A DNA stretch of 64,000 nt from Felis catus (lineage: Eukaryota): positions 103,914,001 to 103,978,000 of the forward strand of contig NC_058368.1 of NCBI RefSeq assembly GCF_018350175.1, written 5' to 3'. Below the pieces are notes generated by a model. That model ran no database searches. It was not told the DNA's origin and saw nothing but the letters and a program-made list of their open reading frames with translations. How positions within the stretch are numbered: position 1 is the first letter of the stretch; each line of letters opens with the position of its first letter. Both the position numbers and the translations under genes were made by a program. Shown here in pieces: positions 6,682 to 61,990 of this stretch.

Positions 6682-6809
6682 ATGTGGAAAAGGCAGCAGG
6701 CCATTCAAGCAAAGAGGAACATCCAGCAGATCTTACAAGCCCAGCTCCTGCCCCATAAGAGCATGTTCAAGAGGAGGGAAGTGAAGCCAATGGACCCAGA
6801 CCCACAACA
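6682..6809 (+). CDS. GRAMD2B: Putative alternative first coding exon 1a of GRAM domain-containing protein 2B
   Basis: ATG at 6682 opens 42 codons, MWKRQQAIQAKRNIQQILQAQLLPHKSMFKRREVKPMDPDPQ, plus CA, then a consensus donor GTAAGT at 6810. Same phase 2 as the other two first exons. CCAAT at 6585-6589. Assignment rests on position and phase, not on recognising the peptide. Confidence 0.7.
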
Positions 6810-7239
6810 GTAAGTGACAGGTCTCAGACCTGGAAAAAAAATAGGTGAGAAGAGGGTATTGCCTCTTTGTTATATAAAAGGTCTCTCTTTAGCATCTCAA
6901 GGACAGAAAGCCTCCACTTGAGGGAGGTCTTTGGCTGCCCATTGGGAGCATTTTCCTTGTTTATCATCAAGGGCTTGAGAAAAAACAAGAGTGATCCCAC
7001 ATGCTTTAGGAACCTAGGACATATCAACCTATGACACAAGCGTATTTTGCTTCTAGGGTTATTGCGTCGAAGAACTGGCAAGGTTTGAGGGTTTTTGTAT
7101 TATTCAAACCGAAAAAAGAGACCTCGAGTAGAGAAGGACAATGAGCAATGCTAGGAGAGGCTTGAAAAGTATGGTTGCAGGGCAGGACTCCATTTGTTCA
7201 AGAGAATTCAGTATTTTCCAGTGAAAGGAAAATGGGACA

Positions 7240-7345
7240 GAAAGAAAGAAGGAGGAAGGGAGGAAGGAAGGGAGGAAGGAAGGAAGGAAGGAAGACAGGA
7301 AGGAAGACAGGAAGGAAGGAAGGAGGGAGGGAGGGAGGGAAGAAG
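7240..7345. repeat. Purine-rich (GGAA)n/(GGGA)n low-complexity tract
   Basis: Directly visible. Confidence 0.9.
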
Positions 7346-9151
7346 GAGAGCACTGAATCCTAACCACTAGACTATCAGGGAGTATCTAAAGGAAAGGAAA
7401 AAAAAAGGAAGGAAGACAGGCAAGGAGGCAAGCAGAAAGACAGAGAGAAAAATACAACAAAAGAAAATGCAATTATGACACACTTGCACTTTCGCACTTG
7501 CATGTTTGAGTTTTAAGTTCCTTTTAATCTAGAAAGATAGGTTTGGTTTTAGGTGCGATTTCATCGACTTCCTTGTAAGCAGGCACTAAGGGTGAGGTTT
7601 TTGGTGTTCTGACTTTTGCTTTGTTCTCTAGTTTACATTTTGTAAAACCTCTGGGGGAGTACCAATTATATGTGGAGGAGTTTAATTTTTTAAAAAAATT
7701 CCTCGAGAATTCCAACTCTAATTGCTTTAAAATCCCTCAAAGAATGATGTCTTAAAAAGAAAGACAATTTTATGGGAAGGTTGTTAGGCTCAGCCCAGAC
7801 CTAGGGCAATAATAGAGAGAAAGCCTCCAGAAACACATTTAAAGGAATCACCATGGGTACACACAACACTGGGAAGACAAACATTGTCCATGAGACGTGA
7901 CGGGAACAGAAAACGTAACATAAAATGTAAATGGGCTGACGAGACAAGGAACTACGTGCTTTCTTTTACTTCCAGGAGACCATGTGTAATAAGGGAAAGA
8001 TGCGTGCCTTTTGATTCTACAAAGTTGCCCTTCAATCCTAGTTTTGTAGCTGTTTAACTGGAAGTGTGCACTAGGGTAAGAGACCATGTCTCCGGAGTTT
8101 GGTTGTCTTATCTTCTTATCTTCTGGAGATAAGGAATGCTATTCCCTAGCATTATTAAGAGGATTAAAAAAGTTTCTATACATAAAGTACCAGGCATATA
8201 GGAATTTAACAAGAATTAAGTTCCCTTGCAGTCTTTATCCTCTGTCCCTGAAAAATGAACCAACACTAGAACGGAGTTTCAGAGATAAACAGCCTATGTC
8301 CCCACAGCCCCCCATGATGGTCTGGTCCAAACACCAAACCCCACCTTAATTCACAGCATTTTCGTGGGTGTGTCAGGCAGGCATAGACTTCGAACTCTGG
8401 TTTACCAGAAACCTCAAAATGACATCTGAACCCGTCTGGCTAACAGCTCACCAAGTCTATGGAGATTGGGAAAGCATCTGGATCTATACTCGAATCTTAG
8501 CCTGCTTACTCACAAACTAGGAGACATGGACGAGTTCATTAAATGGTCTGAGCCTCCGGCTTCTCTGCAAAACGCGGGTGATAACTCCCGTACAGAGTCA
8601 CTTCCAGCACTGCACACAGCATGGTAGCAAACCGACCGCCTTCACCACAACTGCAGTGACCTTTAAAAAACTCTGTCCATTTGTTACCCAATTAGGTCAT
8701 CTTCTGCATTTGGGGGTAACTAGGAGAGAATATTTTGTATTTGTTGATTAGCCCTGTGCATTCTTTCCTCCACAAATTGCATGCTTATGACCCGGCTCAC
8801 ATCTTAAAAGGTCCTATGAGCTGAATTCTCAAGACCAGACTATCCTAGACAGCACCTGTTCTGAAGTCGGCCCAGCCTCGCTGCTCTTCACTGTTTTAAA
8901 ACCCTGCAGGATGAATCTTAAACCGAAGACCGGTAATCACTGGCAATAGCTCGTGCTATTATAAATGCCTGATGATTCTGTAGAGAGTCATCATTTTTAG
9001 TGTTCTTGGTTATTACTATTGTCACAAACAGGTGAAATAAGTATCTAAACAACATGATGTCATGACTGTCAATCAGGATAGAGGGAAAAGAGCAAAAATG
9101 CTGGCTCTAGACTTACATAGTATACATAAAAAAGATAAAAGCCTGTGTCTC

Positions 9152-9400
9152 CGGGGCACCTGAGTGGCTCAGTCGGTTATGCACCCGACTTTGGCTCAGG
9201 TCAGGATCTCATGGTCCACTGGTTAGAGCCCTGTGTCAGGCTCTGTGCTGACAGCTCAGAGCCTGGAGCCTGCTTCAGATTCTGTGTCTCCTTCTGTCTC
9301 TTTGCCCCCCACCTCCCACCCCCCTGCCACTCACGCTCTGTATCTCTCTCCCTCTCTCTCTCAAAAATTAATGAAACATTTAAAAAACTTTTTAGTAAGA
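9152..9400 (+). mobile_element. SINEC_Fc-type SINE
   Basis: ggggcacctgagtggctcag head, ctcagagcctggagcctgcttcagattctgtgtctcc body, tail. Confidence 0.9.
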
Positions 9401-9419
9401 TAAAATTTTTTTAATAAAA

Positions 9420-10720
9420 ATTTACAACGTTTAAAAATTTAAAAACTTGGTACTTCAAAAGACACTGTCAAGAAAGTAGGGGCACCTGGGTGGCTCAGTC
9501 AGTTAAGCGTCCGACTTGGTTCAGGTGATGATCTCATGATTTGTGGTTTCAAACCCCACATCAGGCCCTGTGCTGACAGCCTGGAGCCTACTTCGGATTC
9601 TGTGTCTCCTCTCTCTCTGTCCCTCCCCTGCTCATGCTCTGTTCTGTCTCTCAAAAATAAATAAATGTTAAAAAGGAAAGTAATGAGACAACCTATAAAA
9701 TGGGATAAAATATGTACAAATCACATATCTGATAAAGGACTTATATCCAGAATATATAAAGGACACAACCCAATAATAAAAAAACAACCCAATTTTTAAA
9801 TGAGCAAAGGATTTGAATACATTTTTCTCCAAAACAGATATATGAATGGCCAAAAAGCACAGAAGAGATGCTCAACATCATTAGTCATTAGGAAAATGCA
9901 AATAGAGAAACACGAGATACCAGTTCACCAAAAAGAAAAAAAATAGTTAAATGTTGGCAAGTGTGTGGAGCGATCGGAACCTTCATCTATTGCTGGCTAG
10001 AAAGCAAAATGGCACAACCGCTTTGGAAAAGATGCTGGCATTTCCTCAAAAAGTTAAACATAGCAATTTTACTCCTATGTATTTAGCCAAGACCACTGAA
10101 AATACATGTGCACACAAAACTTGTATGCAAATTTCCATAGCAGCATCATTCATAATGTCCAAAAACCAGAAACAATCCAAATATGTACCAATTGAAACAT
10201 GGATCCATAAGGTTTCATTATGGCTCATAAAAGGGAAATTGTGATGCGTACTACAACTTGGAGGAAACTTGAAAACATGTAGGTGAGGGAGGGGTGCCTG
10301 GCTGGCTCAACCAGTAGAGCATGCAACTCTTGATCTCAGGACCAGGAGTTCAAGCCCCACATTGGGTGTGGAGTGTATTGAAAAACAACAACAACAACAA
10401 AAAGGTGAAAGAAGCCAGTTACAAAAGATTACATATAGTACCTCCCATTTATAGGAAATATCCAGACTAGCTAGATACTTTCTATCTCTACGTGAAATGT
10501 TTCATCCATAGAGACAGAAAACAGTGGTTGCCCAGGGCAGAGAAGCAGGGAGGTAGGAGGATGGAGATTAACTGCCAATGGTTACAAGGTTTCTTTTTGA
10601 CGAGGAAAACGTTCCAAAAGGAGATGAGGTGAAAAGACAGTACCTCTGTAAACATGCTAAAAATCGCTAAGCTAAATACTTTAAACAGGTGGACTTGATG
10701 TTATATAAACTATACGTTAA
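9420..10720 (+). mobile_element. Old L1 (L1MB/MC-like) ORF2 end and 3' UTR, interrupted by SINEs at 9479-9672 and 10291-10400
   Basis: L1 motifs atatctgataaaggacttatatccagaatatataaa, agatgctcaacatcattagtcattaggaaaatgcaaat, catagcagcatcattcataat, agtggttgcccaggg. Confidence 0.85.
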
Positions 10721-11000
10721 GGTGTTTTTTTACTCTTCAAAAATAGTTCCTGTAACTAAGGCCCTATGATTTTACTATAAATGTTAGTAACAATAATTAT
10801 AATAGCTTATCATACAGCTGTTATATTATAAATTATAATTACAAATTGTAAAAGCTTATTATGTTTCAGGCAATATTCAAAGTCTTTACAAGTACTAATT
10901 CACTTTCCTGACAAACCTGGTAGGCAAAGACCATTATTATTCCCATTTCACAGATTAGAAAACTAAGCTATTAAGAGGCATCATAAGAATTCAAACCTAG

Positions 11001-11128
11001 AGGGGCACCTGGGTGCCTCAGTCGGTTGAGCAGTGGACTCTTGATTTTGGCTCAGGTCACGATCTCACGGTTCTTAGGATCAAGCCCTGTGTGAGGCTCT
11101 GTGCTGACAACATGCAGCCTACTTGAGA

Positions 11129-11227
<99 letters not shown>

Positions 11228-11270
11228 ATTACACACAGGTGCTCTCTCTCAACATAAATATTTACAAAAG
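11001..11270 (+). mobile_element. SINEC with an expanded (CT)n microsatellite at about 11134-11226
   Basis: SINE head, pure CT dinucleotide run of about 90 bp. agaattcaaac flanks both sides. Confidence 0.92.
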
Positions 11271-11406
11271 AAAACAGAATTCAAACACAGAGAGTCTGTG
11301 TTTTTAAATAAAATATATACCTGCTCCTGTAATCCAACAGCAAAATATGGGGAGGAAATCCCTGAAATTCAGAGAACTGGGGAAATTTTAAAATATTGTA
11401 ACAAAC

Positions 11407-11530
11407 AGGGGCACCTGGCTGGCTCAGTCAGAAGAGCATGTGACCCTTGTCTCCAGGTTATGAGGTCAAGCCCTATGGTGGGTATAGAGATTACTTAAAA
11501 CTAAAAAAAAAAAAAAAAAATCTTTAACAT
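11407..11530 (+). mobile_element. Short SINEC (b-type)
   Basis: ggggcacctggctggctcagtcag..tagagattacttaaaa. Confidence 0.85.
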
Positions 11531-11575
11531 AAAATAAAATATAATAAACGACAGAGCTTAAGAAAGTTAAAGCCT

Positions 11576-11805
11576 GGGGCGCCTGGGTGGCGCAGTCGGT
11601 TAAGCGTCCGACTTCAGCCAGGTCACGATCTCGCGGCCCGTGAGTTCGAGCCCCGCGTCGGGCTCTGGGCTGATGGCTCAGAGCCTGGAGCCTGTTTTCG
11701 ATTCTGTGTCTCCCTCTCTCTCTGCCCCTCCCCCGTTCATGCTCTGTCTCTCTCTGTCCCAAAAATAAATATAAACGTTGAAAAAAAATTAAAAAAAAAA
11801 AAGAA
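11576..11805 (+). mobile_element. Young SINEC_Fc
   Basis: CpG-rich full-length body. Perfect 16-bp TSD aagaaagttaaagcct at 11560-11575 and 11806-11821. Confidence 0.97.
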
Positions 11806-12740
11806 AAGAAAGTTAAAGCCTAAGAGCAAAATAATTTTTTTTAGTTACTTCACACAACAGCAGTGGAAAATGAAAGGCTGTAGATGACATGGCCATGTCC
11901 CTCTCTTGTCCTACATGAAAACAATATTAGTGGCTCAATCGGTTAAGCGCCTGACTTCACCTCAGACCATGATCTCGCGGTTCGTGGGTTCGAGCCCCAT
12001 GTCGCATCCTCTCTGAGAAGGGCTCATGACTTCACAGGAGGAATTAACCTCCTCTCCAATTGTGATCACAAAAGCCACAGACCACAGGGGCTTGAGAGGA
12101 AGGAACAAGGGACCTGAGATATGACCTATTTCATTAGTTAGACTGAGCATTCCAGGCTGCTTGGGGGGGCCATTAGCACCAATGTCAATACCCCATGGGC
12201 ACAAATTGGTAGTACTTGATCTCTCTCTCTCTCTCTCTCTGCGATTAGATTTTCCACAAGCCACATGCAGGCCCACAGCTGATGTCACATTCCAGAGAAG
12301 GAAATTATATCTTTGGATTGTATTATAATAAGACCACTCAACCATATCGCTAGTATCTTCTGCATGCTTACTGAGTACAGGCTTCATGCTTAAACTGTAT
12401 GTTATTGTAACAAGTCCTCTCCAGAGCCTTTTGAGACTGATACTGTTATTGCCATTTTTCCAGATGTTTGGAGAGGTTAAGAATCTTTCTAAAGTAACAC
12501 AGCAAGGAAACAATGGAGCTACCCTTCCAATGCAAATAACCTACCCTCCAAACACACATTATAAATCACTCTAGAAATGTGGATACATTCACAACATACT
12601 GAAACCGGTTTTCCATATACAGCTATTCCAAGATGAAGTCTGAATTTCAGGGCAACTCCACCAGAATACACACTTTTTTGCCCAAAAGTTACTAACATAC
12701 ACTTAAGAGTATAAAATTAATTATATTAATAATAACCTGA

Positions 12741-13432
12741 GGGGCACCTGGGTGGCTCAGTCAGTTAAGTGTCTGATTCTTTTTAATTTAATTTAATTTA
12801 ATTTAATTTAATTAATTTAATTTAATTTATTTTTTTTTTTAATTTTAGAGAGAGCGTGCACAAACAGGGAGAGGGGCAAAGGGAAATAGAGAAAGAGAGA
12901 AGGAATCTCAAGCAGGCTCCACACTCAGCGTGAAGCTCCATGCAAGACTCAATCCCACGATACTGGGATTATTACCTGAGCTGAAATCAAGTCACACACT
13001 TAACCGACTGAGCCAACCAGGCGCCCTTTTTTTTTTTTAAGTTCATTTATTTATTTTGAGGGAGAGATAAAGCATGCACACACAGGTGGGGGAGGGACAG
13101 AGAGAGAGGGAGAGAGAATCCAAAGCAGGGTCCACACTGCCAGCACAGAGCCTAATGCAGGGCTCGGACACAGGGCTCGAACTCACAAAAGGTGAGATAA
13201 TGACCTGAGCCAAAATCAAGAATCAGATACTTAAGGGGTGCCTGGCTGGCTTAGTGGGTTAACTGTTAAACTCGTGGTTTCAGCTCATGATATCACGGTT
13301 AGTGAGTTCGAGCCCCAGGGCAGTTCTCTGCTGACAGCACGGACCCTGCTTGGAATTCTCTGTCTCCCTCTCTCTCTGCCCCTCTCTCTCTCTCTCTCTA
13401 TCTCAAAAATGAATAAATATTAAAAAAAAAAT
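12741..13432. mobile_element. SINE cluster: + head fragment, two - SINEs, one + SINE, with a (TTTAA)n tail repeat
   Basis: Heads at 12741(+), 13026(-) and 13235(+). (TTTAA)n at 12782-12830. Confidence 0.85.
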
Positions 13433-14313
13433 ACTAACCTGAACACAGCATAATCCACCAGATAAATCTTAAAGCACAAATACCTGTAACACTGCTCAAT
13501 TGTAGAGGAAATTTAGTGTATTTTTAAATGCATATTCACAATCCATGCCTCTGGAAAGTTCAGTTTTGAGGCTGTGATGTTTATCTGGTGTTTTCAGTTT
13601 GGTCTTGTGCCCCAGCATCCCATTCCTACACCTCAAGGAGGAAGGGCGGGGCGGGCGGGGGGGGGGGGGGAGATATAGGCATGAGTTTCCCACCCCCCAC
13701 CCAGCTGAGCACCAGTAAGCATATTAGGTCCCTATTTGTGGACTTCAGAATGGCTAGACATAATAACTAAAGATAGTCATCACTGAACAAGACTTAAATT
13801 CTTGGAACTACAGACCTTGTTTCATTGAAGAAAGAAAACTCGGGTTTAAGGAGAGAAAATTAGGGCTAGAGAAGACTTTCAACACCATGTAAGCTGGCAG
13901 TGTTAAACTCAAAAGCACGTTTTTGAGAACTCAGTGAATCAAAGCAGGCAGAATGAGCCATGGAGAGGGCTGAGGGCAGAGGCAGCCTGCAGAGATCAGC
14001 CCCGCCACAAGGGGGCACTACTGCTTCGTATCAGCCAACTATTACCACACTTGCGGATCCGATTTTCTAGGCAAGGTCGGATAAAAATGTTTTCTGTGAA
14101 ATGTACAAGAAATTTCTACTTATGAAACATGGCAAAGGCCAAACAGCAGATGTCACCAGGCCAAATCCAGCCTAGTATCTTTTCATTCAATAGCAAGGAA
14201 AAAAGCGCAGAGATGTTCATTGAACTTACCAAATGGGAGAGGCGAAATTCATTGTCCTCTTTTCTACCTCAGAACGTCTTTTACAGCCTCTACTTATAAA
14301 GATATAACGTGAC

Positions 14314-14477
14314 TGGGGCACCTGGGTCCGACCCTGGCTCAGGTCATGATCTCACCGTTCGCGGGTTCGAGCCCCACGTGTGGGGGGAGCCTGCTTGGGA
14401 TTCTCGCTCCCTCTCTCTCTGCCCCTCCCCCACTCGCGTTTTCTCTCTCAAAATAAACCTTTTTTTTTTTTTTAAAG
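14314..14477 (+). mobile_element. Internally deleted SINEC
   Basis: Head and tail present. TSD aaagatataacgtg. Confidence 0.85.
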
Positions 14478-15134
14478 AAAGATATAACGTGTGACTTACT
14501 GGAGAGCATCAGAAAAATGAGATATTGGAATCATCGCTGGTCTTGCTTCAGGCTCCCTGCTGTCAGCTTCTGTCTTGTTTGGTTTTCGTAATCTCAGTTT
14601 CCATGGGAGGAGATAATAAGGTCTCTGCAATCCTTATTTGACATGTATTCTACCTACTGCCATTTTTTTCCAGTGTGTGTGCTACTGTTATAACTGTATT
14701 TATATAAATAGCCTACTCCAGGTGTTTATCTTTGATTGCCTGATCTTTGTTTTAATTTTCACACACAAAAATGAAAGCTATGGCACAGGCAAGCAGCACC
14801 CTGAGCAACGGCCACGTCTAAACAGCTGAAGGGGTCAAACACGGCAGGTGGGTGCCTGCGGATGTGGATTCCTGCACAGTGGGCAACTGCCATTAATCTT
14901 AAAAATAAAGCATCAGAATTCACGTTTTCTCTCTGTGGCCGTGTGCCTTTGGAACCTCATTCCTGCTTGACCATAAGGTCCAAACATAACGACTAGCAAA
15001 CTTTGAAACATTTAGCATAGACAGCTCCTAACCAGAAGTGAAGTTCAGGGGGCATGCCACAGCGGGATCCCACACTGACGCGGGTTCACAATGTCCATGC
15101 CACCAGCATCTGGGCATTTAAAACCTGACTGCCC

Positions 15135-15496
15135 TTGACTAATGAGTGATGTTCAGCATCTTTTCATGTGACTGTTGGCTGTCTGGATGTCTTCTTTGGA
15201 GAAATGTTTGTTCGTGTCTTTTGCCCATTTTTTAATTGGATTGTTCAGTGGTGTGTTTTTTTGGTTTTTTGGTTTTTTTTTTTTTTATGTTGACTTGTGT
15301 AAGTTCTTTATAATTGGTGGTTACCTGAGGGGAGGTAGGTGAGAGGATGGGTGAAGTAGGTGGTGTAGATTAAGAATACATTTATAGTGATGAGTACTGA
15401 GTAATGTATAGACCTGTTGAATTGCTATACTGTACACGTGCAAGTAACACAGCACTGTGTGTAAACTATACCAGGACTAAAAACAAAACAAAACAA
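15135..15496. mobile_element. Short L1 with an inverted 5' segment (antisense ORF2 part about 15135-15313, sense 3' UTR about 15314-15496)
   Basis: Antisense gagtgatgttcagcatcttttcatgtg..tcttctttggagaaatg abuts sense ttggtggttacctgaggg..ctatactgtacac..aactatac and an A-rich tail. Confidence 0.75.
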
Positions 15497-15497
15497 G

Positions 15498-15883
15498 TGT
15501 GCCCGGGTGAGCATCCGACCTCAGGTCAAGTCAAGATCTCACGGTTCGTTGAGGTTGAGCCCTACATCAGGCTCACTGCTATCAGATCAGAGCCTACTTC
15601 AGTCCTCTGTCCTCTCTCTGCCTCTCCCCCACCCATGCTTGCTCATGCTCTCTCTCGCACTCTCTCTCTCAAAAAAATAAACATTTTTTAAATTTTTGTT
15701 TATTTTTTGAGAGAGACAGAACACGAGCGGGCGAGGGACAGAGAGAGAGGGAGACAGAGTCTGAAGCAGGCTCCAGGCTCTGAGCTGTCAGCACAGACCC
15801 CAACACAGGGCTTGAACTGACAGACCACAAGATTACGACCAGAGCCGAAGTGAGATGTTTAACTGAGTCACCCAGGCGCCCCC
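15498..15883. mobile_element. Tail-to-tail inverted SINE pair (+ 15498-15690, - 15691-15883)
   Basis: The + body ends aaaaaaataaacatttttt and is immediately followed by the - SINE tail and body ending caggcgcccc. Confidence 0.88.
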
Positions 15884-17389
15884 AAAAAACACACACTAAA
15901 AAAACAAAAAAAAACTTGCAGGTCTCTAGGGAGAACATACACACTGCCCTTTTCTACCACTTTCTGCTGGCTTCTAGCCCCACCTCACAATTTTACTTGC
16001 TTTCCAGGCTCTTGACAGTACTTGAGTATGTGACCCCTGCTCTCCACTTTGAGCAAACCTCATCTTTGACACAATTTCTTCTGATAAGAAAAGAATTCGC
16101 ATCTTACATAAGAGTTCAGTCAATACTGCTTCAACTACTTCAGAGTTGCTTCCCTAAGACTGATAGCTGCTGCCTGAATGAAGTAATTGTATCACCAAGA
16201 CGCTTGAGGTCATTTTCTGCTTTCAAAATATCATGTCCATGGCCTTCAAATTCAGTTTGCATCTTTGTATTCCTACTACCTATGAGATAAAGCTTGAACT
16301 AGCCACTGGCGTTCGGGGTCCTTCATCACTCAGCCTCCACGTAAGTGTTCGAAACTATTACCTTCCTCACCAGTCTCCACTCACACACACACCTGGTCAG
16401 AGTCTAATTATTTGCTCATGAACTCCCCTCCCTTCCCCTTCTGCCTTTCCAATCTCTCCTCATCCTTCAGAGTTTAACTCACACTCCACCTGTCCCTGTA
16501 GGCTTTTCTAAATCTTCCCAGATTCAAATATCTTGCCTCCTCTTAAATGTAAATAAATAATCTCTCCTCCTTTTATATGCTTAATAAACATTTGTTGAAT
16601 GAACAAATGAATTGCAGCAGGGCCGCATTCTTATGGCCACTTAATTATGGCCAAGTTGCTTAACCGTTTTTAAGATAAAGTTTCATCGTCTGTAAAAATG
16701 TGGTTTGGGCAAGGATTGACTGAGATGTTATTTTAAAATTACCTAGCAGAGATGATACATAGACTCAAAAGATATTAGGTAGTCCACAGATGGGAGAAGT
16801 AATAGTCTGATTTACTGCCTTCCTTCCTCCTGTACTGTTAGTTAACTTTTCAGTTATGTACAGTGTCTCTTCCTAGCTTCATGATGGGAGCAGGGCCCAT
16901 GTTAAAAAAAAAATTTTGTATCATGCACTGTGGCTAGCAGGGAATTTTGCTAATAAAACTTTGTTGAGGAGTCAATAGCTTCTCTACTGAAAAATATACC
17001 CAAAGACTGCCTGCTGACACTGGAATTTCCTCCTTTAGAGACATCTTCTCCTAAGTTAAGCAGTGCCCCAGCTAAAATCCAACCGTGCCTGGGAGATGGT
17101 AACAAAGTCTGTTGCCTTAGTTATTAATACATGTGCCGTTTAGACTTTTTTGTTTACAAGGAGCAGAAACTAGCTCACAGGTTGTTGCTCTTATATGAAG
17201 TATGATATTGGTTTATTTAATCCAACACCTTAGTAAAACTTAGTTTATCTAATGTCTTTCCAACATTAGCATAGAGATAAGGGGGAAAGGAGAAATACAG
17301 ATATGGCACTATCAAAGAGGACAGAGAAAAGCTGGGCGAAGCGCACCATCAGAATTGCAGCCAGAAGGCGCTAGGAACCAGTGTGAGCA

Positions 17390-17840: not shown

Positions 17841-17848
17841 GAAAGAAC

Positions 17849-17953: not shown

Positions 17954-18391
17954 TTAGGAACCACTAAAATCCCAGCAAAAGACATACTTCCTTTAATTTC
18001 AAAAGTGTACTTAGAGTCAGTGCTGCACACAGAGCAGCACAAACCTGTCCCTGGCTGGTGACCAGCTGGTTCGAGAAAAGGGCTAACGAGGCCAAGGCTA
18101 AAGATTTGATCTCCCGGGGAAACTTTGCTCTCTTCCACAGTCTGTGACTCACTCAAACCACCATTCGCCAATGCCAGTACGTGTGGCCACTCTGGACCAA
18201 ATCCTTCACTGCTGCTAGGACCATGGGTGGCGGGACACAGATGTTTTCCTTGTGCGTGAACACAGAGTGAGTGAATAACGTCACATAAAGAAACTCACCT
18301 GCTGAACTTCCTGCTTAAATGGGTTCTAAATAACAATAACACATAGCAGTATGGCAAATTTCCACAGCATTTTCTCCTAGATTTCATTCCC

Positions 18392-19439: not shown

Positions 19440-19589
19440 CCTCAGCCAGATTAGGCGTCACGTGAAGAGTTTCCTGCACTGGGGGAACGGAGCAAAGCCA
19501 AACGCAGGGATTTTCACATCATCAGAGGTGGGGGATTCAGAAATGAGCCTTTGAGCTTATTTCCTGACCTGCCGATCGGCACGGGCGCA
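19440..19589 (+). promoter_or_regulatory. Putative promoter / 5' UTR of exon 1b
   Basis: Locally CpG-enriched non-repeat sequence. E-box GTCACGTGA at 19457-19465 overlaps the half-CRE CGTCA. Confidence 0.5.
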
Positions 19590-19714
19590 ATGGTGAAGAA
19601 AAGGCTGTCTTCCAGTGACACGGTGTTCCGGTTTGACATTCCGGGCAGCCCAAGAAAGGCAGGCACCGAGGCCCCACACAGCGCCGCAGACTGCCCCAGC
19701 TCTGTGCTTCTCAG
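19590..19714 (+). CDS. GRAMD2B: Alternative first coding exon 1b of GRAM domain-containing protein 2B
   Basis: Strong Kozak gcaATGg. 41 codons, MVKKRLSSSDTVFRFDIPGSPRKAGTEAPHSAADCPSSVLL, plus AG, then donor GTGGGT at 19715. Resembles the recalled rodent Gramd2b N-terminus (MVKK..SSSD.VF.F.IP.SP..SHSSTDSPSSVFLS|SEAENG). Confidence 0.88.
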
Positions 19715-52284: not shown

Positions 52285-52306
52285 AAAGAAAGAAAGAAAG
52301 AAAGAA

Positions 52307-52390
<84 letters not shown>
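52285..52390. repeat. (GAAA)n microsatellite
   Basis: Directly visible. Confidence 0.97.
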
Positions 52391-52484
52391 AAATACTGGT
52401 TAGAATAAAGGAAGGAAGGAAAGAAGGAAGGCCAGACTGCAAAATTTGCCTCAAATGATGGGTCTATTTATAAAACTGAAACTG

Positions 52485-52702
52485 AGGCACCTGGGTGTCT
52501 CAGTCGGTTGACTGTCGGACTTTAGCTTGGGTCATGATCTCACAGCTTGTGCTTTCGAGGCCCATCGGGCTCTGTGCTGACAGCTCAGAGCCTGGAACCT
52601 GCTTTGGATTCTGTGTCTCCCTCTCTGTCCCTCCCCCATTTACACTCTCTGTCTCTCTCTGAAGATAAATAAATAAATAAAACATTAAAAAATAAAATAA
52701 GA
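52485..52702 (+). mobile_element. SINEC_Fc
   Basis: Body and tail. tataaaactgaaac flanks both sides. Confidence 0.88.
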
Positions 52703-53446
52703 TATAAAACTGAAACAAAAAGTAAAAGCAAAATAAATCCGTGGCTACTTGAGGGAAACAAAAAAACTTTCTTGTTTGTCTGAAGGGTTTTCTCCATTCG
52801 CTCCTCCCCTGTTCCTCCTGTGCTATCGTTTTTGTTAAGCAATTCTTAGAAAGGAATACCATCAGAAAACCAATTGGAAGAAAGGATAACAAAATGCTAA
52901 CAGGAATTGTTGAAAAGGAGTAACATGAAAGCAGGTAAAAAGGAAAGAAAATCCAAAGAAATAAAAAGTGTGCAACTGGTGATATAAAGAAAAAAATTTA
53001 ACAACAGTAACTCCTTTGAATAATTCAGTATTAACTGCTTCAAAACAGTGTCCTAATTGCACTATGCAGACTGATTCCTCAGAACATTTCACAGGGAGCA
53101 AAACAGCACATGTGAAACCCAGGCACAAGGAAAGAGCACAGCCAGTGCTTATAAGGAGGGCATGATCATCAGTTCCCAGAACAAGGAAAGGAAGTTGCTG
53201 TATGAATGTTTCCCTAAGAAAAACTGAGAGATTCCCTAACTTACAATCGTTGCCTGTGGATTATAAACAGTGATTCTTGGACTTACTTCGGAGCCAGACC
53301 ATCTGGGAGTCATGGGACCTCTCTGACCCATTTGAAATACGTGCCGTCCTAGCATAAACCAAAGGTTTTCTTTTTTAAGTTGGAGGTGCGGGGTGAGAGG
53401 ATTTGATTTAAATTTCTTTTTCATGAACTCTCTTTTTCCCCTGCAA

Positions 53447-53449
<3 letters not shown>

Positions 53450-53499
<50 letters not shown>

Positions 53500-54063
53500 C
53501 AAATGTGGGGCACCTGGTTGTCTCAGTAAGTGGAGTATGTGACTCTTCATCCCAGGACTGTGAGTTTGAGACGCATGTTGGATGTAGAGATCCCTTTTAA
53601 AAATTAAAAATTCTTGGGGCACCTGGGTGGCTCAGTTGGTTAAGCGTCCGACTTTGGCTCAGGTCATGATCTCACGGTCCGTGAGTTCGAGCCCCACGTC
53701 AGGCTCTGTGCTGACAGCTCAGAGCCTGGAGCCTGTTTTGGATTCTGTGTCTCCCTTTCTCTCTCTGACCTTCCCCCGTTCATGCTCTGTCTCTCTCTGT
53801 CTCAAAAATAAGTAAACCTTAAAAAAAAAAAATTGAAAATTCTTGAAAAGAAGGTCAGGGGTGCCTGGGTGGCTCAGCTGGTCGAGCATCCAACTCTTGG
53901 TTTTGGCTCACGTCATGATTTCATGATTTCGTGAGTTTGAGCCCTGCATCAGGCTCTGCGCTGGCAGCGTGAAGCCTGCTTGGGATTCTCTCTCTCCCAC
54001 TCTCCCTCTGCTCCTACCCCATTCACGTTCTCTGTCAAAATAAATAAATAAACTTTAAAAAAA
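53450..54063 (+). mobile_element. (CA)n microsatellite (53450-53497) followed by three tandem SINEs (53507-53610, 53616-53832, 53857-54063)
   Basis: Three heads: ggggcacc, ggggcacc, ggggtgcc. Confidence 0.9.
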
Positions 54064-54339
54064 GGTCCAATGCTACTACTCAACATTAGAACATCTCAGG
54101 TCATCTGGAGTTCCAAAAGATTATGGCTGAGAACCACCGGTTAGAAACAACCACCCAATGATTCCTTCATTCATTCAACACATATTTATTAAGCTCCTAA
54201 CATTAACCAGGTACTGTGGATAGAATGGCAAACACACACCCCTTTGGGGGCGGGGGGGGGGGGGGTGGAGATTCCAATCTTATGGGAGGGGACAGATAAG
54301 AAACAAATGGACAGAGAAGATAATATCTCTATGAGACCA

Positions 54340-54770
54340 TCTCCCACCAACCTTCTCTTCCCTCCTTATACACCAGGCACAGTAGAGAACAGTGGCCTTT
54401 TTTGCTGTCCCTAGACTATGGCCAAGGTCAGACTTGCCTCGACACCTTTAGCCATGTTCTCCCCAGTGGCTGCCCAGATATGCACTCAGACTTCACATGG
54501 CTTCTTCCTTTCCCTCTTTCAAGTCTGACACGTCACGCCTTAAAGAGGCTTCCCTGATCTTCCTGTGTAAAATAGCCCTCCCTCGTTCTCCATTGTTTTC
54601 TGTTTTTGTTGTTTGTATCTCTCATCTGTTGAAATTGTGTTCTTGATGTGCTTATTGTTCTCATTTTCAATTGTCCCACTAGAATGCAAGACCCAACACA
54701 CCATGGATATTTCCTGTTTTGTTCACTTGTATACCTCATGCATGTACAAAAGTGCTGTTAGAAATGCTCA
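54340..54770 (+). mobile_element. L2 3' fragment
   Basis: acatggcttcttcc..ttcaagtct..agaggcttccctga..ccactagaatgcaag..ttttgttcac. Confidence 0.7.
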
Positions 54771-54775
54771 TTTAT

Positions 54776-54986
54776 GGGAAGCCTGGGTGGCTCAGTCAGT
54801 TAAGCATCAGATTCTTGGTTTCTGCTCAAGACATGATCTCACAGTTCATTCAATGGAGCCAGCTTGGGATTCTCTCTCTCATCCTCTGCCCCTCTCCCCT
54901 TCTTATGCTCTCTCTCAAAATAAATAAACATGAAGGAAGGAAGGAAGGAAGGAAGGAAGGAAGGAAGGAAGGAAGGAAGGAAGGAA

Positions 54987-55063
<77 letters not shown>

Positions 55064-55590
55064 AGAAAAGAAATAAAGAGAAAAGGGGTTCCTGGGTGGC
55101 TTAGTCAGTTAAGCGTCAGATTCTTGGTTTCTGCTCAAGACATTATCTTACAGTTCATTCAATGGAGTCCAGTGCTGGGCTTTGCGATGGCAGCATGGAG
55201 CCAGCTTGGGATTCTCTCTCTTATCCTCTGCCCCTCTCCCCTTCTTGTGCTCTCTCAAAATAAATAAACATTAAGAAAGAAAGAAAGAAAGAAAGAAAGG
55301 AAGGAAGGAAGGAAGGAAGGAAGGAAGGAAGGAAGGAAGGAAGGGAGGAAAGAAAGGAAGGAAGGAAGGAAAGGGGCACCTGAATTCAGGCTCAGTTGGT
55401 TAAGCATCTGACTTCACTCAGGTCATGATCTCACGGTTCATGGGTTCGAGCCCCCCACTGGGCTCTGTGCTGACAGCTCAGAGCCTGGAGCCTGCTTCAG
55501 ATTCTGTCTCGTGTCTCTGGCCCTCCCTTGCTCACACTCTGTCTCTCTCTTTCTCTATCAAATACAAAATAAAACATAAAGCATTTAAAA
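54776..55590 (+). mobile_element. Tandemly duplicated SINE plus microsatellite unit (54776-55084, 55085-55372), followed by a third SINE (55373-55590)
   Basis: The first two copies share unusual variants (tcagattcttggtttctgctcaagacat, cagttcattcaatggag, ccagcttgggattctctctc). Each is followed by a GGAA/GAAA tract. Confidence 0.9.
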
Positions 55591-55667
55591 AGAAAAAACA
55601 AATGCCCATTTATTCACATCCACATTGAAAAAGTATCCAGTCAGAGAGCCTCATCTATTACCTGCAC

Positions 55668-56191
55668 TGTGGAAGCCACTCCCCAGACATGGTCCCTGGT
55701 AAACTACACTCCAGGTATTTACACCTTGATTGTGGGCTGGCTCTGGGGCTCACCTTTGACCACTAGAAAGCAGAGCTGAAGCTGCCTGATATCCAAGGCT
55801 ATCTCATAAAAAGCCTTGTGGATTCCCCTTTAGCATTACAGAACACGTGCTCTGGAGGAAGTCAGCCATCAGGTAAAAAGTCGAAGTATACAGAGATGGC
55901 CATGTTGTAAGGAAACCCACCTGGCCACGGGGCGGGCCATGCAGGGAGACAAAATGCTCCACTACTCTCCACCTGTTCCAGCTATCCCAGCTGAAGGACC
56001 AGACATAGGAGGTGCATGTCTAGCTCCATCGAGTCTTCAAATGACTCCAACGACAATGACTGCCTGAGAGACCCCTATGAGAACTGTGCAGCTGAGCCCT
56101 GTCAACCCACCGTACCATGAGAGGAAATATTAAATTATCGTTTTAAGCCACAAACTTTGAAGTAGTTATGCAGCAATATTTAACGACAAAA
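55668..56191 (+). mobile_element. MLT1-type (MaLR) solo LTR
   Basis: Starts tgtgg, has cagctgagccc..tcaaccc..ttttaagccac..ttatgcagcaata end motif. Near-TSD tgcac/tgcag. Confidence 0.78.
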
Positions 56192-56542
56192 TGCAGCCAC
56201 CAAAGATAGCTCTAGACTCCAACAGTTCTTTGCTCACAAACATCATACACGTGTAGGGTCCTTGGGATCTCCCTCCCACACACTCTCTGGTAAGGTACGT
56301 TTCTCTGACATTCTGCTCACTCTCCTACACCCCTACAACTACCCAGTGAAACTCAGGAAAGCTGAATTTTCATCCTCAAGGGATCACTGTCATCTTGGCC
56401 AAGTCCCTCAACCCTCTGAAGCTCAGGCTCTTCTCTGAAAAAGGACTGTAGATTTCATTTGAAATTTTTGTTCAGTGTGGCACAAGCAACACTTTTCCCC
56501 TTCTTCAAATATAAACTAATACAGAACACAAATACATGAAAG

Positions 56543-56714
56543 AGGGGCCCCTGGGTAGCTAAGCTGGTTAGGCATCCAACTTCAGCTCAGGTCATGATCT
56601 CGCAGTTCGTGAGTTCGAGCCCCGCGTGGGGCTCTGTGCTGACAGCTCAGAGCCTGGAGCCTGCTTCAGATTCTGTGTCTCCCTCTCTCTCTGCCCTTCC
56701 CTGCTTGTGTTCTG

Positions 56715-56750
<36 letters not shown>

Positions 56751-56783
56751 TCAAAAATAAACATTAAAAAAACTTAAAAAAAA
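56543..56783 (+). mobile_element. SINEC_Fc
   Basis: Full body. TSD aaatacatgaaagag. Confidence 0.93.
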
Positions 56784-57079
56784 AAATACATGAAAGAGAT
56801 TTAAGAGGAAGAGGTCTAGCAGAAGCAGGAGAGGCTGTGTATCTGAGTGGTGCTAAAAGGGAGGCTGTTGTCAGAAGACCTCAGTTGAAAGGCCGGCTCC
56901 TCAACTCTCTAGTTCAAAGAGCCCTGACTCTCGCAGAACCTGGTGTGAAAACCACATACCGGATGGTCTCAGGGGCTTCCTTACTTCACATGTGACCTGT
57001 AACTAACCATACAGAAAACAGATATCTACTTTAAACCTCTGGGGTCGATTTCAATGTATTAATTATGTGGCATTGTGTA

Positions 57080-57272
57080 TTTTATTTTTATTTTCATTTG
57101 ACACAGAGAGTATGCATGCCTGAGCCAGGGAAAAGGGCAGAGGAAGAATCCTAAGCAGGCTCCACACTCAGCACAGAGACCGATGTGGGGCTCAATCTCA
57201 CAACCCTGGGATCATGACCTGAGCTGAAATCTAGAGTTGGACACTCAACTGACTGAGCTACCCAGGTTCCCC
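57080..57272 (-). mobile_element. SINEC
   Basis: Antisense body. TSD tgtgtatttt. Confidence 0.88.
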
Positions 57273-58817
57273 TGTGTATTTTAATTTTTAAAAAGAACAT
57301 TGGACCGGCAGAGTTTTGTTTACTGCTGCTGCTTTCTCCCAGAACATGACTTAGACTAGTGTTTCCCAGCTACTGCTGGCCCCTACACCAGGAAGCCCTT
57401 ACCACCTTGTCCACTTCTCTCAACATGGATGCTAAACTTGGTTCGTGCCTCATCCCTAGAGAGAGGAAGAGAATATTTCAAGTTTTCCCATTTGCAGTAT
57501 AACCTGGCTTGGGAAATACTGGTTTAGAACCATTCTATTTTTAAATATTTTAAATATAGAACCATTCTTTTTTTAAATATTATTCTCAAAGATGTGCAGA
57601 GTAGGAGATTCCATGCCTTACTATAGATTTCCATTCCAATGTTTAATGGCTGTGCTCATCAGGAAATTTCCCTTCCTATAAGTAAATGCTTCTCAACTTT
57701 CATTCTTAAAACTTTTTTTTCGAAGTCTTAAAATCAAACCCTTCAGGGTCACCATGGGGCTCTCTTCTGAACTCGTGCAGTGTTTTCCATTTTCTCCTTT
57801 GAACACTGAGCTTAAATTGAAAACGGGAATGGTCTGATGAGTGTTCATGAATTTCTTTGACTTATGACACTGATACATTGAATATTATGCATAGTGATGA
57901 CAGCTTGTATCTTGGTAAGAATATCAACAGCTTCTTAAACATGTCGTCAGACAATAGTTATGAAATTACAGGCATGTGATGATCCTTTAGTGTACCTCTA
58001 TTGACTAATAAATACATTGCCTGCCATTTGTTATCAATTAGGCAATTACTTGACCACACCTTACACTCTTATCTCCACTCAAATCTCTAAACTCATATTT
58101 GAACTCTGCCCCTGAGACTATGCACGCACAGTGTATCTGATCAATGTAAAAAAGACACTGACTTTGGTCGATATTCCAAGCCGTTAAGTAGGAGTCTTCT
58201 GCAACCTGAAAGGTGATGGATTAGGCATTTACTACTGGATCTGATTAAGTAACTGGAAAAAGTAACAGCTAGAACTCTTCTTTGATGTTAGAAACAAGAA
58301 ATTAGGTGCCCAGAGGCTAGGAGGAAGAAAAGTAAAGGGTCTGTTATTGGAGCAAAATCAAGGAGCCCTCTAAAATATATTTCAGACATAATCTTACGTT
58401 TCTATTTGTCACACTACAGTGAAATTTCCCCTATCATCTACTGCTGCTGCCTTTTAAATACCGCATTCCACTTTCCTGTATGATAGCCCCATGAATAAAC
58501 AAATTATGAAGCTGTCTGACAAAGTCTTTTAAACCCAGACAAACATCACTAAGTAAAATAATAACATTTACTTCCTCCTTTGTAATTCTTCCCCGTTCTG
58601 GGGAAGGACTAGCTGCTATTTCCACCACCTGCCCCTAAACCCACCCCCCTCCCTTCCTTTCTCCCTTAAGATCACACTATTTTCAGTCCTCATCCTACAC
58701 ATTACAGAACAAGTTTGAGGGCACCCAAGTGCGCATTGATTGAGCTGTAAGCCCATGCTGAGGAAGCTTTCAACACTGGTTTTTATTCACGCATCAAAAG
58801 AGGCCTAGCCAAGGTAT

Positions 58818-59392
58818 CTCAAAAGGTTAAACATGTAACTACCATCTGACCAGCAATTCCACTCCTAGATATATACCCAAAAGAAATGAAAGCAAGGACG
58901 TGAACAGGTATTTGTGTGTCGTTCACAGCACTATTATTCACAAGAGCCAAAAGGTAGAAACAGGTCAAGTGTCCATGAACAGGTCAACAGATAAACAAAT
59001 GTGGGGTATACACACAATGGATTATTATTCAGCCATAAAAAAAAGAATGAAGTGATGAGATACGCTATAACTTAGGCGGAACTTGAAAACATTATACGCA
59101 GTGAGACAAGCCAAACATAGCAAGAAAAATATCACATGACTGCACTTACATGAAGTATCCAGAACAGACAAATTCAAAGACACACAAAGTAGAATAAAGG
59201 TTACCAGGGACCCAGAGGAAGGGAGGAAGGCTTATTGTTGAATGGATACAGAGTTGATGTTGGATAGGACAAAAGTTTTGGGCATAGAGAGTGGTAACTT
59301 TTACACATACTGTGAGTATATTTAATGTCACTGAATGTACGCTGGCCAATGGCGAAAATGATATTATGTATACTTTACTGCAATAAAAAAAT
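58818..59392 (+). mobile_element. L1MB-like 3' end
   Basis: ccagcaattccactcctagatatatacccaaaagaaatgaaa, gttcacagcactattattcaca, tattattcagccataaaaa, ending caataaaaaaa. Confidence 0.9.
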
Positions 59393-59797
59393 AGTTGGGG
59401 CAAAAACTGAGCTCTCCTCTGATCCGTAGTGGGTGCTGTTAGGAAGGCACCCGAGATTTAAGGAGAGAGTACTACCCAGTTTAGGACGGTGATAACCTCC
59501 TATATTTCAGGCCCACACCTGTCATGAGTAGGAAAGTTGGCTAGAGAAGGAACCTGGCGGCTGAAGGTGTAATGTCCCCAGGAAAAGCCAGGAAGGGATA
59601 CCTAAGAGAGCTTGCAAACCTTCTGGTCACACAAAGCCTTCCCCACCACACCCAGCCAGGCTTCCACAGGAGTCAATGGTGAAGAGCAACCCCCCTTTGC
59701 AGCAAAATAGGTGAGAAAGAGAGAGCGCATGAGAGACGGGGCACGATCTGCCAGGCCCACTCTCGTAGATTTTACAAAAACATTTTTATTTTATTTT

Positions 59798-60026
59798 CTT
59801 TTTTTTTTTAATTTTTTTTTCAACATTTTTTATTTACTTTTGGGACAGAGAGAGACAGAGCACGAACGGGGGAGGGCCAGAAAGAGAGGGAGACACAGAA
59901 TCGGAAACAGGCTCCAGGCTCTGAGCCATCAGCCCAGAGCCTGACGCGGGGCTGGAACTCACGGACCGCGAGATCGTGACCTGGCTGAAGTCGGACGCTT
60001 AACCGACTGCGCCACCCAGGCGCCCC
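59798..60026 (-). mobile_element. Young SINEC_Fc
   Basis: CpG-rich antisense body. TSD tattttatttt. Confidence 0.96.
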
Positions 60027-60564
60027 TATTTTATTTTTTCCAAGTGTTAGGACAATTTTGGAGCAAGCAGGCTACAAAAAGATGCTTTCGTTCTCTCAGC
60101 CTAATCACACAGCTAGTAAATGAAAAGGCAAAAAGAAATCTTTGGAAAGGCCTTGATCCCCCAACTGTGTGCAGTTATCCGAAAGGGTAGGTGTTTTCTT
60201 TGACACACACCCTATATACACAGATACACAAACATAAACAAAAACACTATGGTTCCGTAGTCTCTGCCATTATTCTGAAATCTAAAATTTAAATTTAAAG
60301 AAACAGAAAGGCCTTGCAGCCGCAGGCAGGGCCGAAAGATCGCTCCCCCCCCCCCCCCCCAGCCATGTCATGAACTATTGTTGCCACTTGTAATTGTTTT
60401 AAAGTCAGTTTGGGCTTCCAACAATAAGGTTTTACATTCCTCTTACTGTCAACGACTTAGAAAATCACCAACACACACTTTATTTGTTATAATAAGGGAA
60501 TGTTTAGAAGGATGCCTGGCACCTAGAAGCTCTCAAAACTATGTGAAAGAAATGGATGATGTGG

Positions 60565-60809
60565 GTTTTTTTTTTAATTTTTTAATATTTAAAAATATTT
60601 ATTTACTTATTTACTTACTTACTTATTTACGTACTTATTTATTTATTTTGATGGGGTGGGAAGGGGCAGAGAGAGAGAGAGGGAGACACACAATCCAAAG
60701 CAGGCTCCAGGCTCTGAGCTGTCCGCGCAGGGGCTCAAACCCACAAACCGTGAGATCATGACCAGAGCCCAAGTCGGACGTCCAACCAACTGGGCCACCC
60801 AGGCGCCCC
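60565..60809 (-). mobile_element. SINEC_Fc with a (TTAC/TTAT)n tail
   Basis: Antisense body. tgga(t/g)gatgt flanks. Confidence 0.9.
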
Positions 60810-61069
60810 TGGAGGATGTTTCAAATGCAAACTTTGAGACAGATTCAGCAAGCCAAAACCTCACCAAAAAGCGGGAAGAAGAGGCATTCCTTTTCCAGGT
60901 GGGGGGCACAGTCGACGCTAAGTTGCTAATGAGATTTTGAGGAACGCTCTCCCTGCACCCCCACCCCCACCCCTCTCCCCACCCCCATAACGGGGAAGGG
61001 TTAACCAGACAACCTCTAGAGACAACCACGTCTCGCTACCTTTGTCACTGAACTGACCTATTGTTGGAG

Positions 61070-61990
61070 CCCCGACGGAGCAGTCCCCAATGAGGCAATA
61101 TCCTGTCTGAATAATTTAGGCCGGGACACCGCGCAGCCCACAGCGCGCATCTGGGAGACCGAGCGCCTCGCTCAGTCCGAACCATTTCCTGTAGCCGCAG
61201 AAGGCCGCCCGTTTTTAAAACTCCCCGGTTACAGCTGGAGGGGGGGTGCTAGGGGGGCGGGAGGAAGCCCAACTTACCAGGAGGCTAAATATACGGAGCC
61301 TACTTAGGCAACTGTTCCACCTGCGTGGCCAATTAGCTTCCTCCCCCAGCCAGACTAGTTCAACAGGTTTGCAGGCGCTCGGGCCGGGCCTCGCGGGTTG
61401 GGGCAGGAGGCTGTCACTTGCCTTCGGCCCTCCCCTTCCCTCCCCGGCCCGCACGCCGGCGCCGACCAATCGCGGCCGCCCGGACGTGTCCAGGTTGGCG
61501 GCCCCGCGGCTCCGGGCCGGCCTGGATGCGCTGAGCGGCCGGGAGCGCGCGAGGAGGGCGCACGGAGGGCGCGGGGAGAGGCGCGGCTCGTGGGGCCTGC
61601 GCCCGGAACGCTGGGAGCCGCGAGGGGACGTCTGAAGGTGCCCTCCACCCGCGGCCCCGATGACCGAACTACAGCAAGATGTGGAAGACGCAAAGCCTGC
61701 CAAAGTGCTCGCGAAGAGAGACAGCAAAGTTGGCTCAGCCCAGTAAGTAGCGTCCGGCCCCGGGCGGGCGGGAGCGCGCTGCCCAAACTTCTGTGCCGGG
61801 GACGGGTTTGGCTTGGAACTTGACCGTGGACGGACAGCCCCGTGGCTTGAACTCTTTCGGGGGGCGCCCGTGCTCTTCTTTCTCTCCGATGCTGTAGTGG
61901 GGAACGAGGCACAGCAGCGTTTGAGGAACGGACCGCAACTTGCAGTCTGGTGGGGATGTGAAGGATTGGAGCGAAAGCACGATTGGCGTG
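61070..61990 (+). promoter_or_regulatory. CpG island promoter of GRAMD2B exon 1c
   Basis: Dense GC/CpG non-repeat sequence, strongest at about 61370-61930. CCAAT at 61329-61333 and 61466-61470, GC-box-like motifs, and it spans an ATG exon and donor. Confidence 0.9.
61660..61742 (+). CDS. GRAMD2B: First coding exon 1c (canonical isoform) of GRAM domain-containing protein 2B
   Basis: 27 codons, MTELQQDVEDAKPAKVLAKRDSKVGSA, plus CA, then donor GTAAGT at 61743. Matches the recalled human GRAMD2B N-terminus MTELQQDVEDTKPAKVLGKRESKLGSAH. Confidence 0.95.

What the first reader, a model, noticed from the sequence alone, without database searches (positions are those of the whole stretch)
6682..61742. 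Three phase-matched alternative first coding exons spread over 55 kb give GRAMD2B interchangeable N-termini
Seen: three ATG-started exons (128, 125 and 83 coding nt) each end two bases into a codon (CA|GTAAGT, AG|GTGGGT, CA|GTAAGT), so all could splice in frame to one acceptor. Known from recall: exon 1c matches the human GRAMD2B start, exon 1b matches the rodent start, and both continue into SEAENG. Inference: a three-promoter system attaches unrelated N-termini (basic/Gln-rich, Ser-rich, or mixed-charge) to the same GRAM-domain membrane protein. This is the strongest biological signal here, although alternative GRAMD2B starts are probably already annotated in human.
Basis: partly seen in the sequence, partly recalled or inferred. 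Interest (0 to 1): 0.7.

Follow-up and report, generated by a model that had tools for sequence, protein, structure and literature searches.

The report
Alternative first exons of feline GRAMD2B
These are three real alternative starting exons of the cat-family GRAMD2B gene, each already annotated in cats and other mammals, so the finding is ordinary; one side note is that the farthest start can also splice into a dead end created by an old retroposon.

Summary
The three exons are there as described: 128, 125 and 83 coding nt, each ending in phase 2 at a GT donor. The pattern alone is at chance level: 9 such candidates on the + strand, 8 on the - strand. Homology settles it. Each peptide is letter-for-letter the N-terminus of an annotated felid GRAMD2B model that continues into SEAENG: 1a clouded leopard XP_058593573.1, 1b cat XP_019687133.2, 1c Felidae XP_007087869.1. 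Orthologous starts occur widely in placental mammals. 'Three' is an undercount: a fourth start (not in the window) and a +1-frame start inside 1c (ATG 61679) are curated human isoforms. Against the simple picture: of 4 runs laid on exon 1a, one gave one contig. It leaves at donor 6809 but joins 14478, an acceptor formed by a SINE tail, where the frame stops at once. 1a-to-exon-2 splicing in this organism was therefore not shown. Promoters were not tested. Verdict: already known alternative first exons, low interest. No earlier scan note on this gene was found.

The parts
6682..6809 (+). Exon 1a, coding part (42 codons + 2 nt, phase-2 donor). Basic and Gln-rich, net +6 over 43 residues.
   Evidence: Identical to the N-terminus of Neofelis XP_058593573.1. 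Donor used exactly at 6809 in one contig of run X1. Composition.
6464..6681 (+). 5' untranslated part of exon 1a, as far as the contig reaches. Contains a 23-nt tandem duplication (6636-6682) and, in the window allele, a 22-codon upstream ORF from 6580.
   Evidence: The X1 contig runs 6464-6809 without a joint; contigs cannot show a start..
14315..14477 (+). Diverged sense-strand SINE whose tail holds a run of 14 T and an AG, forming a splice acceptor at 14477|14478. Flanked by a 14-nt target-site duplication (14298 and 14478).
   Evidence: It is 1 of 12 + strand copies with a recognisable tail, and the only one with a T-run of 8 or more. The label 'carnivore SINE' is recalled, not from a repeat library.
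14478..14520 (+). Start of a cryptic exon joined to donor 6809; its 3' end is unknown. The exon 1a frame stops at 14485-14487 (window allele) or at 14518-14520 (X1 allele).
   Evidence: The loose end of the X1 contig matches 14478-14507 at 29 of 30 letters, the only match in the window. Stops.
19590..19714 (+). Exon 1b, coding part (41 codons + 2 nt, phase-2 donor). Ser/Thr-rich with a basic start, net +2.
   Evidence: Identical to Felis catus XP_019687133.2 and jaguarundi XP_040300658.1..
60751..62250 (.). CpG island around exon 1c, the likely main promoter.
   Evidence: CpG observed/expected 0.63-0.97 in 500-nt windows. The 500 nt before the ATG are 71% GC with 3 GC boxes and 2 CCAAT sites.
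61660..61742 (+). Exon 1c, coding part (27 codons + 2 nt, phase-2 donor). Canonical start, net charge 0.
   Evidence: Identical to Felidae XP_007087869.1 and two lion entries. 23 of 27 identical to human NP_076416.2.
61679..61742 (+). Second ATG in exon 1c, in the +1 frame (21 codons + 1 nt, open to the donor).
   Evidence: Matches Prionailurus GAB5566652.1 (21 of 22). Orthologous to curated human isoform 9, NP_001336473.1.

Best explanation
This is the 5' end of GRAMD2B (GRAMD3) in a cat-family genome. Separate first exons (1a, 1b, 1c, and a fourth outside the window) each carry an ATG and end two bases into a codon. Each is spliced to one shared exon 2 that begins with a pyrimidine and reads SEAENG, so one GRAM-domain, ER-anchored protein gets a different 12-43-residue tip ahead of a long low-complexity linker. 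Shown: the exons, their phase, and their identity with annotated isoforms. Inferred: each exon has its own promoter (CpG-island 1c as the broad one, CpG-poor 1a and 1b as tissue-biased ones). Also inferred: the arrangement mainly serves transcriptional control, with the peptides tolerated or at most tuning membrane contact through their basic residues. In this lineage part of the 1a output is caught by a SINE-made acceptor at 14478.
For: Exact N-terminal matches in felid models for all three exons, each followed by H or S and then SEAENG. Among 299 retrieved proteins (redundant, not a random sample): 115 of 1c type, 79 of 1b type, 28 of 1a type, 32 of the fourth type, 15 with the +1-frame start, 9 starting in exon 2 in the +1 frame, 21 other (the 1a and 1b counts each include one unspliced read-through). 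In the 257 of 299 with a recognisable junction, the junction residue is never K, E, Q, M or W, as expected if exon 2 supplies a pyrimidine as third base. 1a keeps an open frame of 41-43 residues from aardvark to primates, bats and carnivores. Donor 6809 is used in an RNA contig. The GRAM domain is present in all three felid isoforms tested. The GRAM domain, not the tip, targets the paralogues GRAMD1a and GRAMD2a to ER-plasma-membrane contacts (PMC5823543, section 5 read).
Against: The felid entries are predicted models whose read support I could not see. The single contig at exon 1a goes to 14478, not to exon 2. No RNA was laid on 1b or 1c. The 1a peptide is weakly conserved: 46-67% identity in 8 comparisons, against 80-88% for the first 40 residues after the junction. 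Models with a closed frame would not appear as proteins, so its open frame is partly an ascertainment effect. No human 1b-type protein was among the 14 human-labelled proteins retrieved. Three bat models put a further exon ahead of 1a, two of them matching window 3560-3643, so 1a need not always be the first exon.
Confidence: 0.85

Rival explanations
1. In this lineage exon 1a is largely uncoupled from GRAMD2B. The SINE-tail acceptor at 14478, 7.7 kb downstream, wins over the real exon 2, which lies more than 57 kb away. The 1a promoter then makes mostly a short, effectively non-coding RNA with a 45-56-codon frame.
For: The only record laid on exon 1a (1 contig, depth 15.7, in 1 of 4 runs) runs straight through 6809 into 14478, with no second contig going elsewhere. 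The frame stops after 2 or 13 further codons. The cat model labelled X1 is the 446-aa 1b form, while the clouded leopard X1 is the 447-aa 1a form; reading the absence of a cat 1a model from this numbering is inference.
Against: One contig from one run; contigs drop rarer forms, and records like human DNA (which exon 2 would be) may be filtered out (tool notes). The window peptide is identical to the clouded leopard 1a isoform, with ATG, frame and donor intact. The SINE is diverged (best match to another copy in the window 76% over 136 columns), so it may predate the felid radiation and be present in the clouded leopard too; not testable here.
Confidence: 0.2
2. The N-terminal peptides are functional modules. 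The basic, amphipathic 1a tip (and the basic starts of 1b and of the fourth exon) binds acidic plasma-membrane lipids and changes where or how strongly GRAMD2B tethers the ER.
For: 1a has net charge +6 and the highest helical hydrophobic moment of the four tips (0.72, against 0.30-0.46). All tips are kept across placental orders. Q15 and Q19 are invariant in 17 aligned 1a isoforms.
Against: Low conservation of 1a. GRAM deletion alone abolishes contact-site targeting of the paralogues (PMC5823543). No paper on isoform-specific GRAMD2B function was found.
Confidence: 0.25
3. Exons 1a and 1b are chance ATG-plus-donor patterns or annotation artefacts.
For: The pattern alone is common: 9 of 23 candidates on the + strand are phase 2.
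Against: Orthologous exons are annotated across many orders with conserved length and phase, and donor 6809 is used in RNA.
Confidence: 0.03

Closest known systems
Annotated GRAMD2B isoforms of felids: Neofelis XP_058593573.1 (1a), Felis catus XP_019687133.2 and jaguarundi XP_040300658.1 (1b), Felidae XP_007087869.1 (1c), Puma XP_025779257.1 (fourth start)
   Same: N-termini identical to the window's three peptides, each continuing into SEAENG.
   Different: None in sequence. No 1a-type model labelled Felis catus was among the proteins retrieved (1 cat-labelled protein seen).
Human GRAMD2B isoforms: NP_076416.2 (1c), XP_047273564.1 and XP_011541895.1 (1a), NP_001139794.1 and NP_001336471.1 (fourth start), NP_001336473.1 (+1 frame of 1c)
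   Same: Same set of alternative starts and the same phase-2 junction; 1a 27 of 42 and 1c 23 of 27 identical.
   Different: No human 1b-type protein among the 14 retrieved, though orangutan and monkeys have it. That a curated 447-aa human 1a isoform exists is my recollection and comes from no call.
Ordinary alternative-promoter genes with distinct first exons
   Same: Unrelated short first exons spliced to common downstream exons; 3,296 human genes were studied under this definition (PMC2923625, abstract read).
   Different: Nothing in kind.
Variable-first-exon clusters (clustered protocadherins, UGT1A; recalled, and named in scan note e1-7274989)
   Same: Phase-matched alternative first exons joined to constant exons.
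   Different: There the variable exons are tandem paralogues encoding whole domains. Here they are unrelated 27-42-codon tips with no significant cross-matches.
SINE-created splice acceptor, as in canine PMEL Merle (PMC6091007, passages read)
   Same: A carnivore SINE supplies a T-rich tract and an AG that compete with the normal acceptor.
   Different: In Merle the SINE is antisense and is itself exonised. Here it is in sense orientation, its tail carries an atypical T-run, and the exon begins just after it, at the target-site duplication.

Membership tests
GRAMD2B (GRAMD3) 5' exons | Peptides match N-termini of annotated GRAMD2B proteins | tested here: met
   Exact matches for 3 of 3 exons.
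GRAMD2B (GRAMD3) 5' exons | The product has a GRAM domain and no VASt domain | tested here: met
   3 of 3 felid isoforms tested give PF02893 and no VASt hit. These exons lie outside the window, so this was tested on database proteins. Family architecture as in PMC5823543.
Alternative first coding exons | Donor phase compatible with one shared acceptor | tested here: met
   All phase 2. 0 of 257 junction residues need a purine as third base. The +1-frame isoforms read T at the junction, which implies that exon 2 starts with C (inference from the code).
Alternative first coding exons | Each exon is spliced to the shared exon 2 in RNA of this organism | tested here: inconclusive
   Only 1a was laid: 3 of 4 runs gave nothing, and 1 gave one contig joining 6809 to 14478.
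Alternative first coding exons | Each exon has its own transcription start site | not testable with these tools
   No CAGE data. The contig reaches 6464 unspliced but cannot show a start. CpG island at 1c only.
Variable-exon cluster (protocadherin/UGT1A type) | Variable exons are duplicated paralogues encoding a domain | tested here: not met
   No significant cross-matches between the three exon types. No Pfam family in 1a or in the extended 1b frame; 1c alone was not scanned.
SINE-derived cryptic acceptor | The acceptor's pyrimidine tract and AG come from an inserted element bounded by target-site duplications | tested here: met
   14-nt duplication at 14298 and 14478; T14 and AG directly before 14478; GT..AG intron 6810-14477. 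The family name of the element was not tested against a repeat library.

The most novel reading that the evidence does not exclude
In this cat lineage an old sense-strand SINE with a T-rich tail has become the main splice acceptor for the distal GRAMD2B exon 1a. It diverts a promoter conserved across placental mammals into a short dead-end transcript and so lowers or removes the 1a isoform, while the exon itself still looks intact.
Probability: 0.2. Interest if true: 0.35.

Novelty: already known. Interest (0 to 1): 0.15.

Why it matters
Little beyond annotation. Alternative first exons of this kind are common in mammals, and all three are already in public gene models. GRAMD2B itself is of some interest: it was recently tied to beta-cell survival and glucose tolerance (PMC13226668, passages read). 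I found no study of its N-terminal isoforms, so knock-down and rescue work should state which start is used. If the SINE acceptor proved dominant it would be a small, tidy example of a retroposon muting one isoform without touching its exon.

Tried and rejected
No whole genome is held for this window, so exon 2 and the fourth first exon could not be read as DNA. The run search was made with the 1c stretch: no RNA holder listed. 4 of the 24 listed runs were laid, on exon 1a only. X23 and X24 (raw single-cell reads, about 1 in 100 read) and X20 (contigs) gave 0 records, which is no test. A direct search with the 1a peptide among longer proteins found nothing (2 candidates): a sensitivity failure, since and the profile search (3 hits) then found orthologues. 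One search listed only the best 120 of 228 hits. The AlphaFold model of the 1a isoform on 17 sequences had mean pLDDT 37.8; its helix at residues 2-30 is below confidence and is not used; no fold search was run. Rfam: 0 matches. A putative acceptor just ahead of 1a (about 6629), suggested by the bat models, was not used in the X1 contig, which reads through it. The fourth first exon was sought in six frames and by tblastn and is not in the window (best hit E 0.23). I noticed a shared 11-letter word at the 1a start and at the +1-frame start of 1c and set it aside as a post-hoc coincidence; it was not tested. Literature searches: GRAMD2B+isoform 13 papers; GRAMD3+alternative promoter 1; GRAMD3+first exon 3; GRAMD3 with transcript variant/isoform, at least 2 of 3 terms, 1 of the 30 listed mentions GRAMD3; GRAMD2B+N-terminal+GRAM domain 4; promoter terms, none of the 8 listed mentions GRAMD2B; GRAMD3+dual coding 0. 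None of the listings showed a study of these exons; most were seen as listing and abstract start only. PMC3714349 (passages) was irrelevant. Supplements were not read.
Full report
Observation. The three exons are present exactly as reported: 6682-6809 (128 nt), 19590-19714 (125 nt) and 61660-61742 (83 nt). Each is open from its ATG, ends two bases into a codon and is followed by a GT donor. The pattern is not informative on its own. With a simple donor matrix, 23 ATG-to-donor frames of 25-60 codons exist on the + strand (9 in phase 2) and 18 on the - strand (8 in phase 2).

Identity. The 1b peptide found GRAMD2B directly (3 hits among 8 candidates). A search with the shared region behind the junction gave 228 hits, of which 120 were listed; cluster look-ups and a profile search brought the set to 299 proteins. 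All three window peptides are exact N-termini of felid models. 1a is Neofelis XP_058593573.1. 1b is Felis catus XP_019687133.2 and jaguarundi XP_040300658.1. 1c is XP_007087869.1 and two lion entries. Each continues with H or S and then SEAENG. The 1b peptide differs by one residue from the Panthera entry P0124, which points to a small-cat (Felinae) genome; this is inference. The three felid isoforms tested carry the GRAM domain PF02893. The shared exon 2 is outside the window, and no genome is held.

Breadth and phase. Of the 299 proteins, 115 are 1c type, 79 are 1b type and 28 are 1a type. Another 32 have a fourth short start, 15 start in the +1 frame of 1c, 9 start in the +1 frame of exon 2, and 21 are other. 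The set is redundant and biased to well-annotated species; the fourth class was assigned by pattern, and one 1a and one 1b entry are unspliced read-throughs. 1a occurs in aardvark, primates, bats and carnivores, and no rodent was among the 28. 1b occurs in tamandua, primates, bats, carnivores, pig, whale, shrew and guinea pig. 1c occurs throughout. In the 257 proteins with a recognisable junction, the split residue is never K, E, Q, M or W, so exon 2 supplies a pyrimidine and phase 2 is right. Identity to the felid peptide is 46-67% for 1a, 59-78% for 1b and 56-89% for 1c (8 comparisons each), against 72-95% for the next 40 residues.

More than three starts. The fourth first exon is curated in human (NP_001139794.1, NP_001336471.1) and modelled in puma; it is not in the window. 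Exon 1c holds a second ATG at 61679, open to the donor in the +1 frame. Models from human (curated NP_001336473.1), other primates, bats, donkey and stoat read 76 residues in that frame and then rejoin the main frame. A Prionailurus model returns to the main frame through a different insert. A search for GRAMD3 with 'dual coding' found 0 papers, but the isoform is in the human reference annotation.

RNA. No holder on record as RNA was listed. I laid 4 of the 24 listed runs on 6080-7210. Three gave nothing, which is no test. Run X1 gave one 631-nt contig (depth 15.7) that covers 6464-6809 with 3 other letters and leaves the genome exactly at the donor. So the 1a donor is real and X1 holds spliced RNA. 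Its continuation is not the SEAENG exon: it matches window 14478-14507 at 29 of 30 letters, the only match in the window. The acceptor there is a run of 14 T plus AG at the tail of a diverged sense-strand SINE (14315-14477) between 14-nt target-site duplications. It is the only one of 12 comparable + strand copies with such a T-run. The 1a frame ends after 2 further codons in the window allele, or after 13 in the X1 allele. This is one contig. Contigs lose minor forms and human-like records may be filtered, so it shows that this splice exists, not that the normal one is absent.

How it most likely works. Independent promoters feed short first exons into a common phase-2 acceptor. 1c sits in a CpG island with GC and CCAAT boxes, whereas 1a and 1b are CpG-poor (observed/expected 0.26 and 0.50, against 0.88). 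This fits a broad main promoter and two tissue-biased distal ones (inference; start sites not tested). The tips differ in charge (+6, +2, 0). They sit about 85 residues ahead of the GRAM domain, which in the paralogues GRAMD1a and GRAMD2a is what targets the protein to ER-plasma-membrane contacts (PMC5823543, section 5 and passages read). I think the main role is transcriptional, and give about one chance in four to a real functional difference between the tips. The structure prediction was too poor to help (mean pLDDT 37.8).

Comparison and verdict. This is a member of the ordinary class of genes with alternative first exons (PMC2923625, abstract only). It is not a protocadherin-type cluster, since the exons are short and unrelated. 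All three starts are already in public annotation. No paper on their biology turned up in the searches listed under Tried and rejected. GRAMD2B as a gene is linked to beta-cell survival (PMC13226668, passages). The SINE-tail acceptor, which works like the acceptor in canine Merle (PMC6091007, passages) but from a sense-oriented element, is the only part I could not find annotated, and it rests on one contig.

Noticed in passing
window 564-917 (- strand): Intronless, degenerate copy of NDUFA5 (Pfam PF04716, E 1e-18), probably a processed pseudogene.
   Followed up: partly
window 61679-61742 (+): Second ATG in the +1 frame of exon 1c, the start of a dual-coding stretch that is a curated human isoform and is modelled in primates, bats, donkey and stoat.
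   Followed up: partly
window 19455-19589 (+): The frame upstream of the 1b ATG is open for 45 codons and is homologous to an in-frame extension annotated in bats, horse and pig, but both upstream ATGs seen in those species are absent here.
   Followed up: partly
window 3560-3638 (+): Matches an exon that two bat models place ahead of 1a (E 2e-4 and 4e-4); a donor AGA|GTGAGT follows 3638. A possible upstream exon; not seen in the X1 contig.
   Followed up: partly
window 18193-18266 (+): Matches an exon that a raccoon-dog model splices into the middle of 1b (E 6e-5); a donor AGA|GTGAGT follows 18266.
   Followed up: no
window 6636-6682 (+): 23-nt tandem duplication (91% matches) ending at the 1a ATG.
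   Followed up: no
window 6580, 6587, 6755, 14485: Run X1 differs from the window at four places. One removes an upstream ATG (a 22-codon uORF), one changes a CCAAT site, one changes codon 25 of 1a, and one removes the first stop of the cryptic exon. Alleles or another population; no matching DNA run was checked.
   Followed up: no
whole window: Dense in SINE copies of about 230 nt and in simple repeats; no Rfam match.
   Followed up: no
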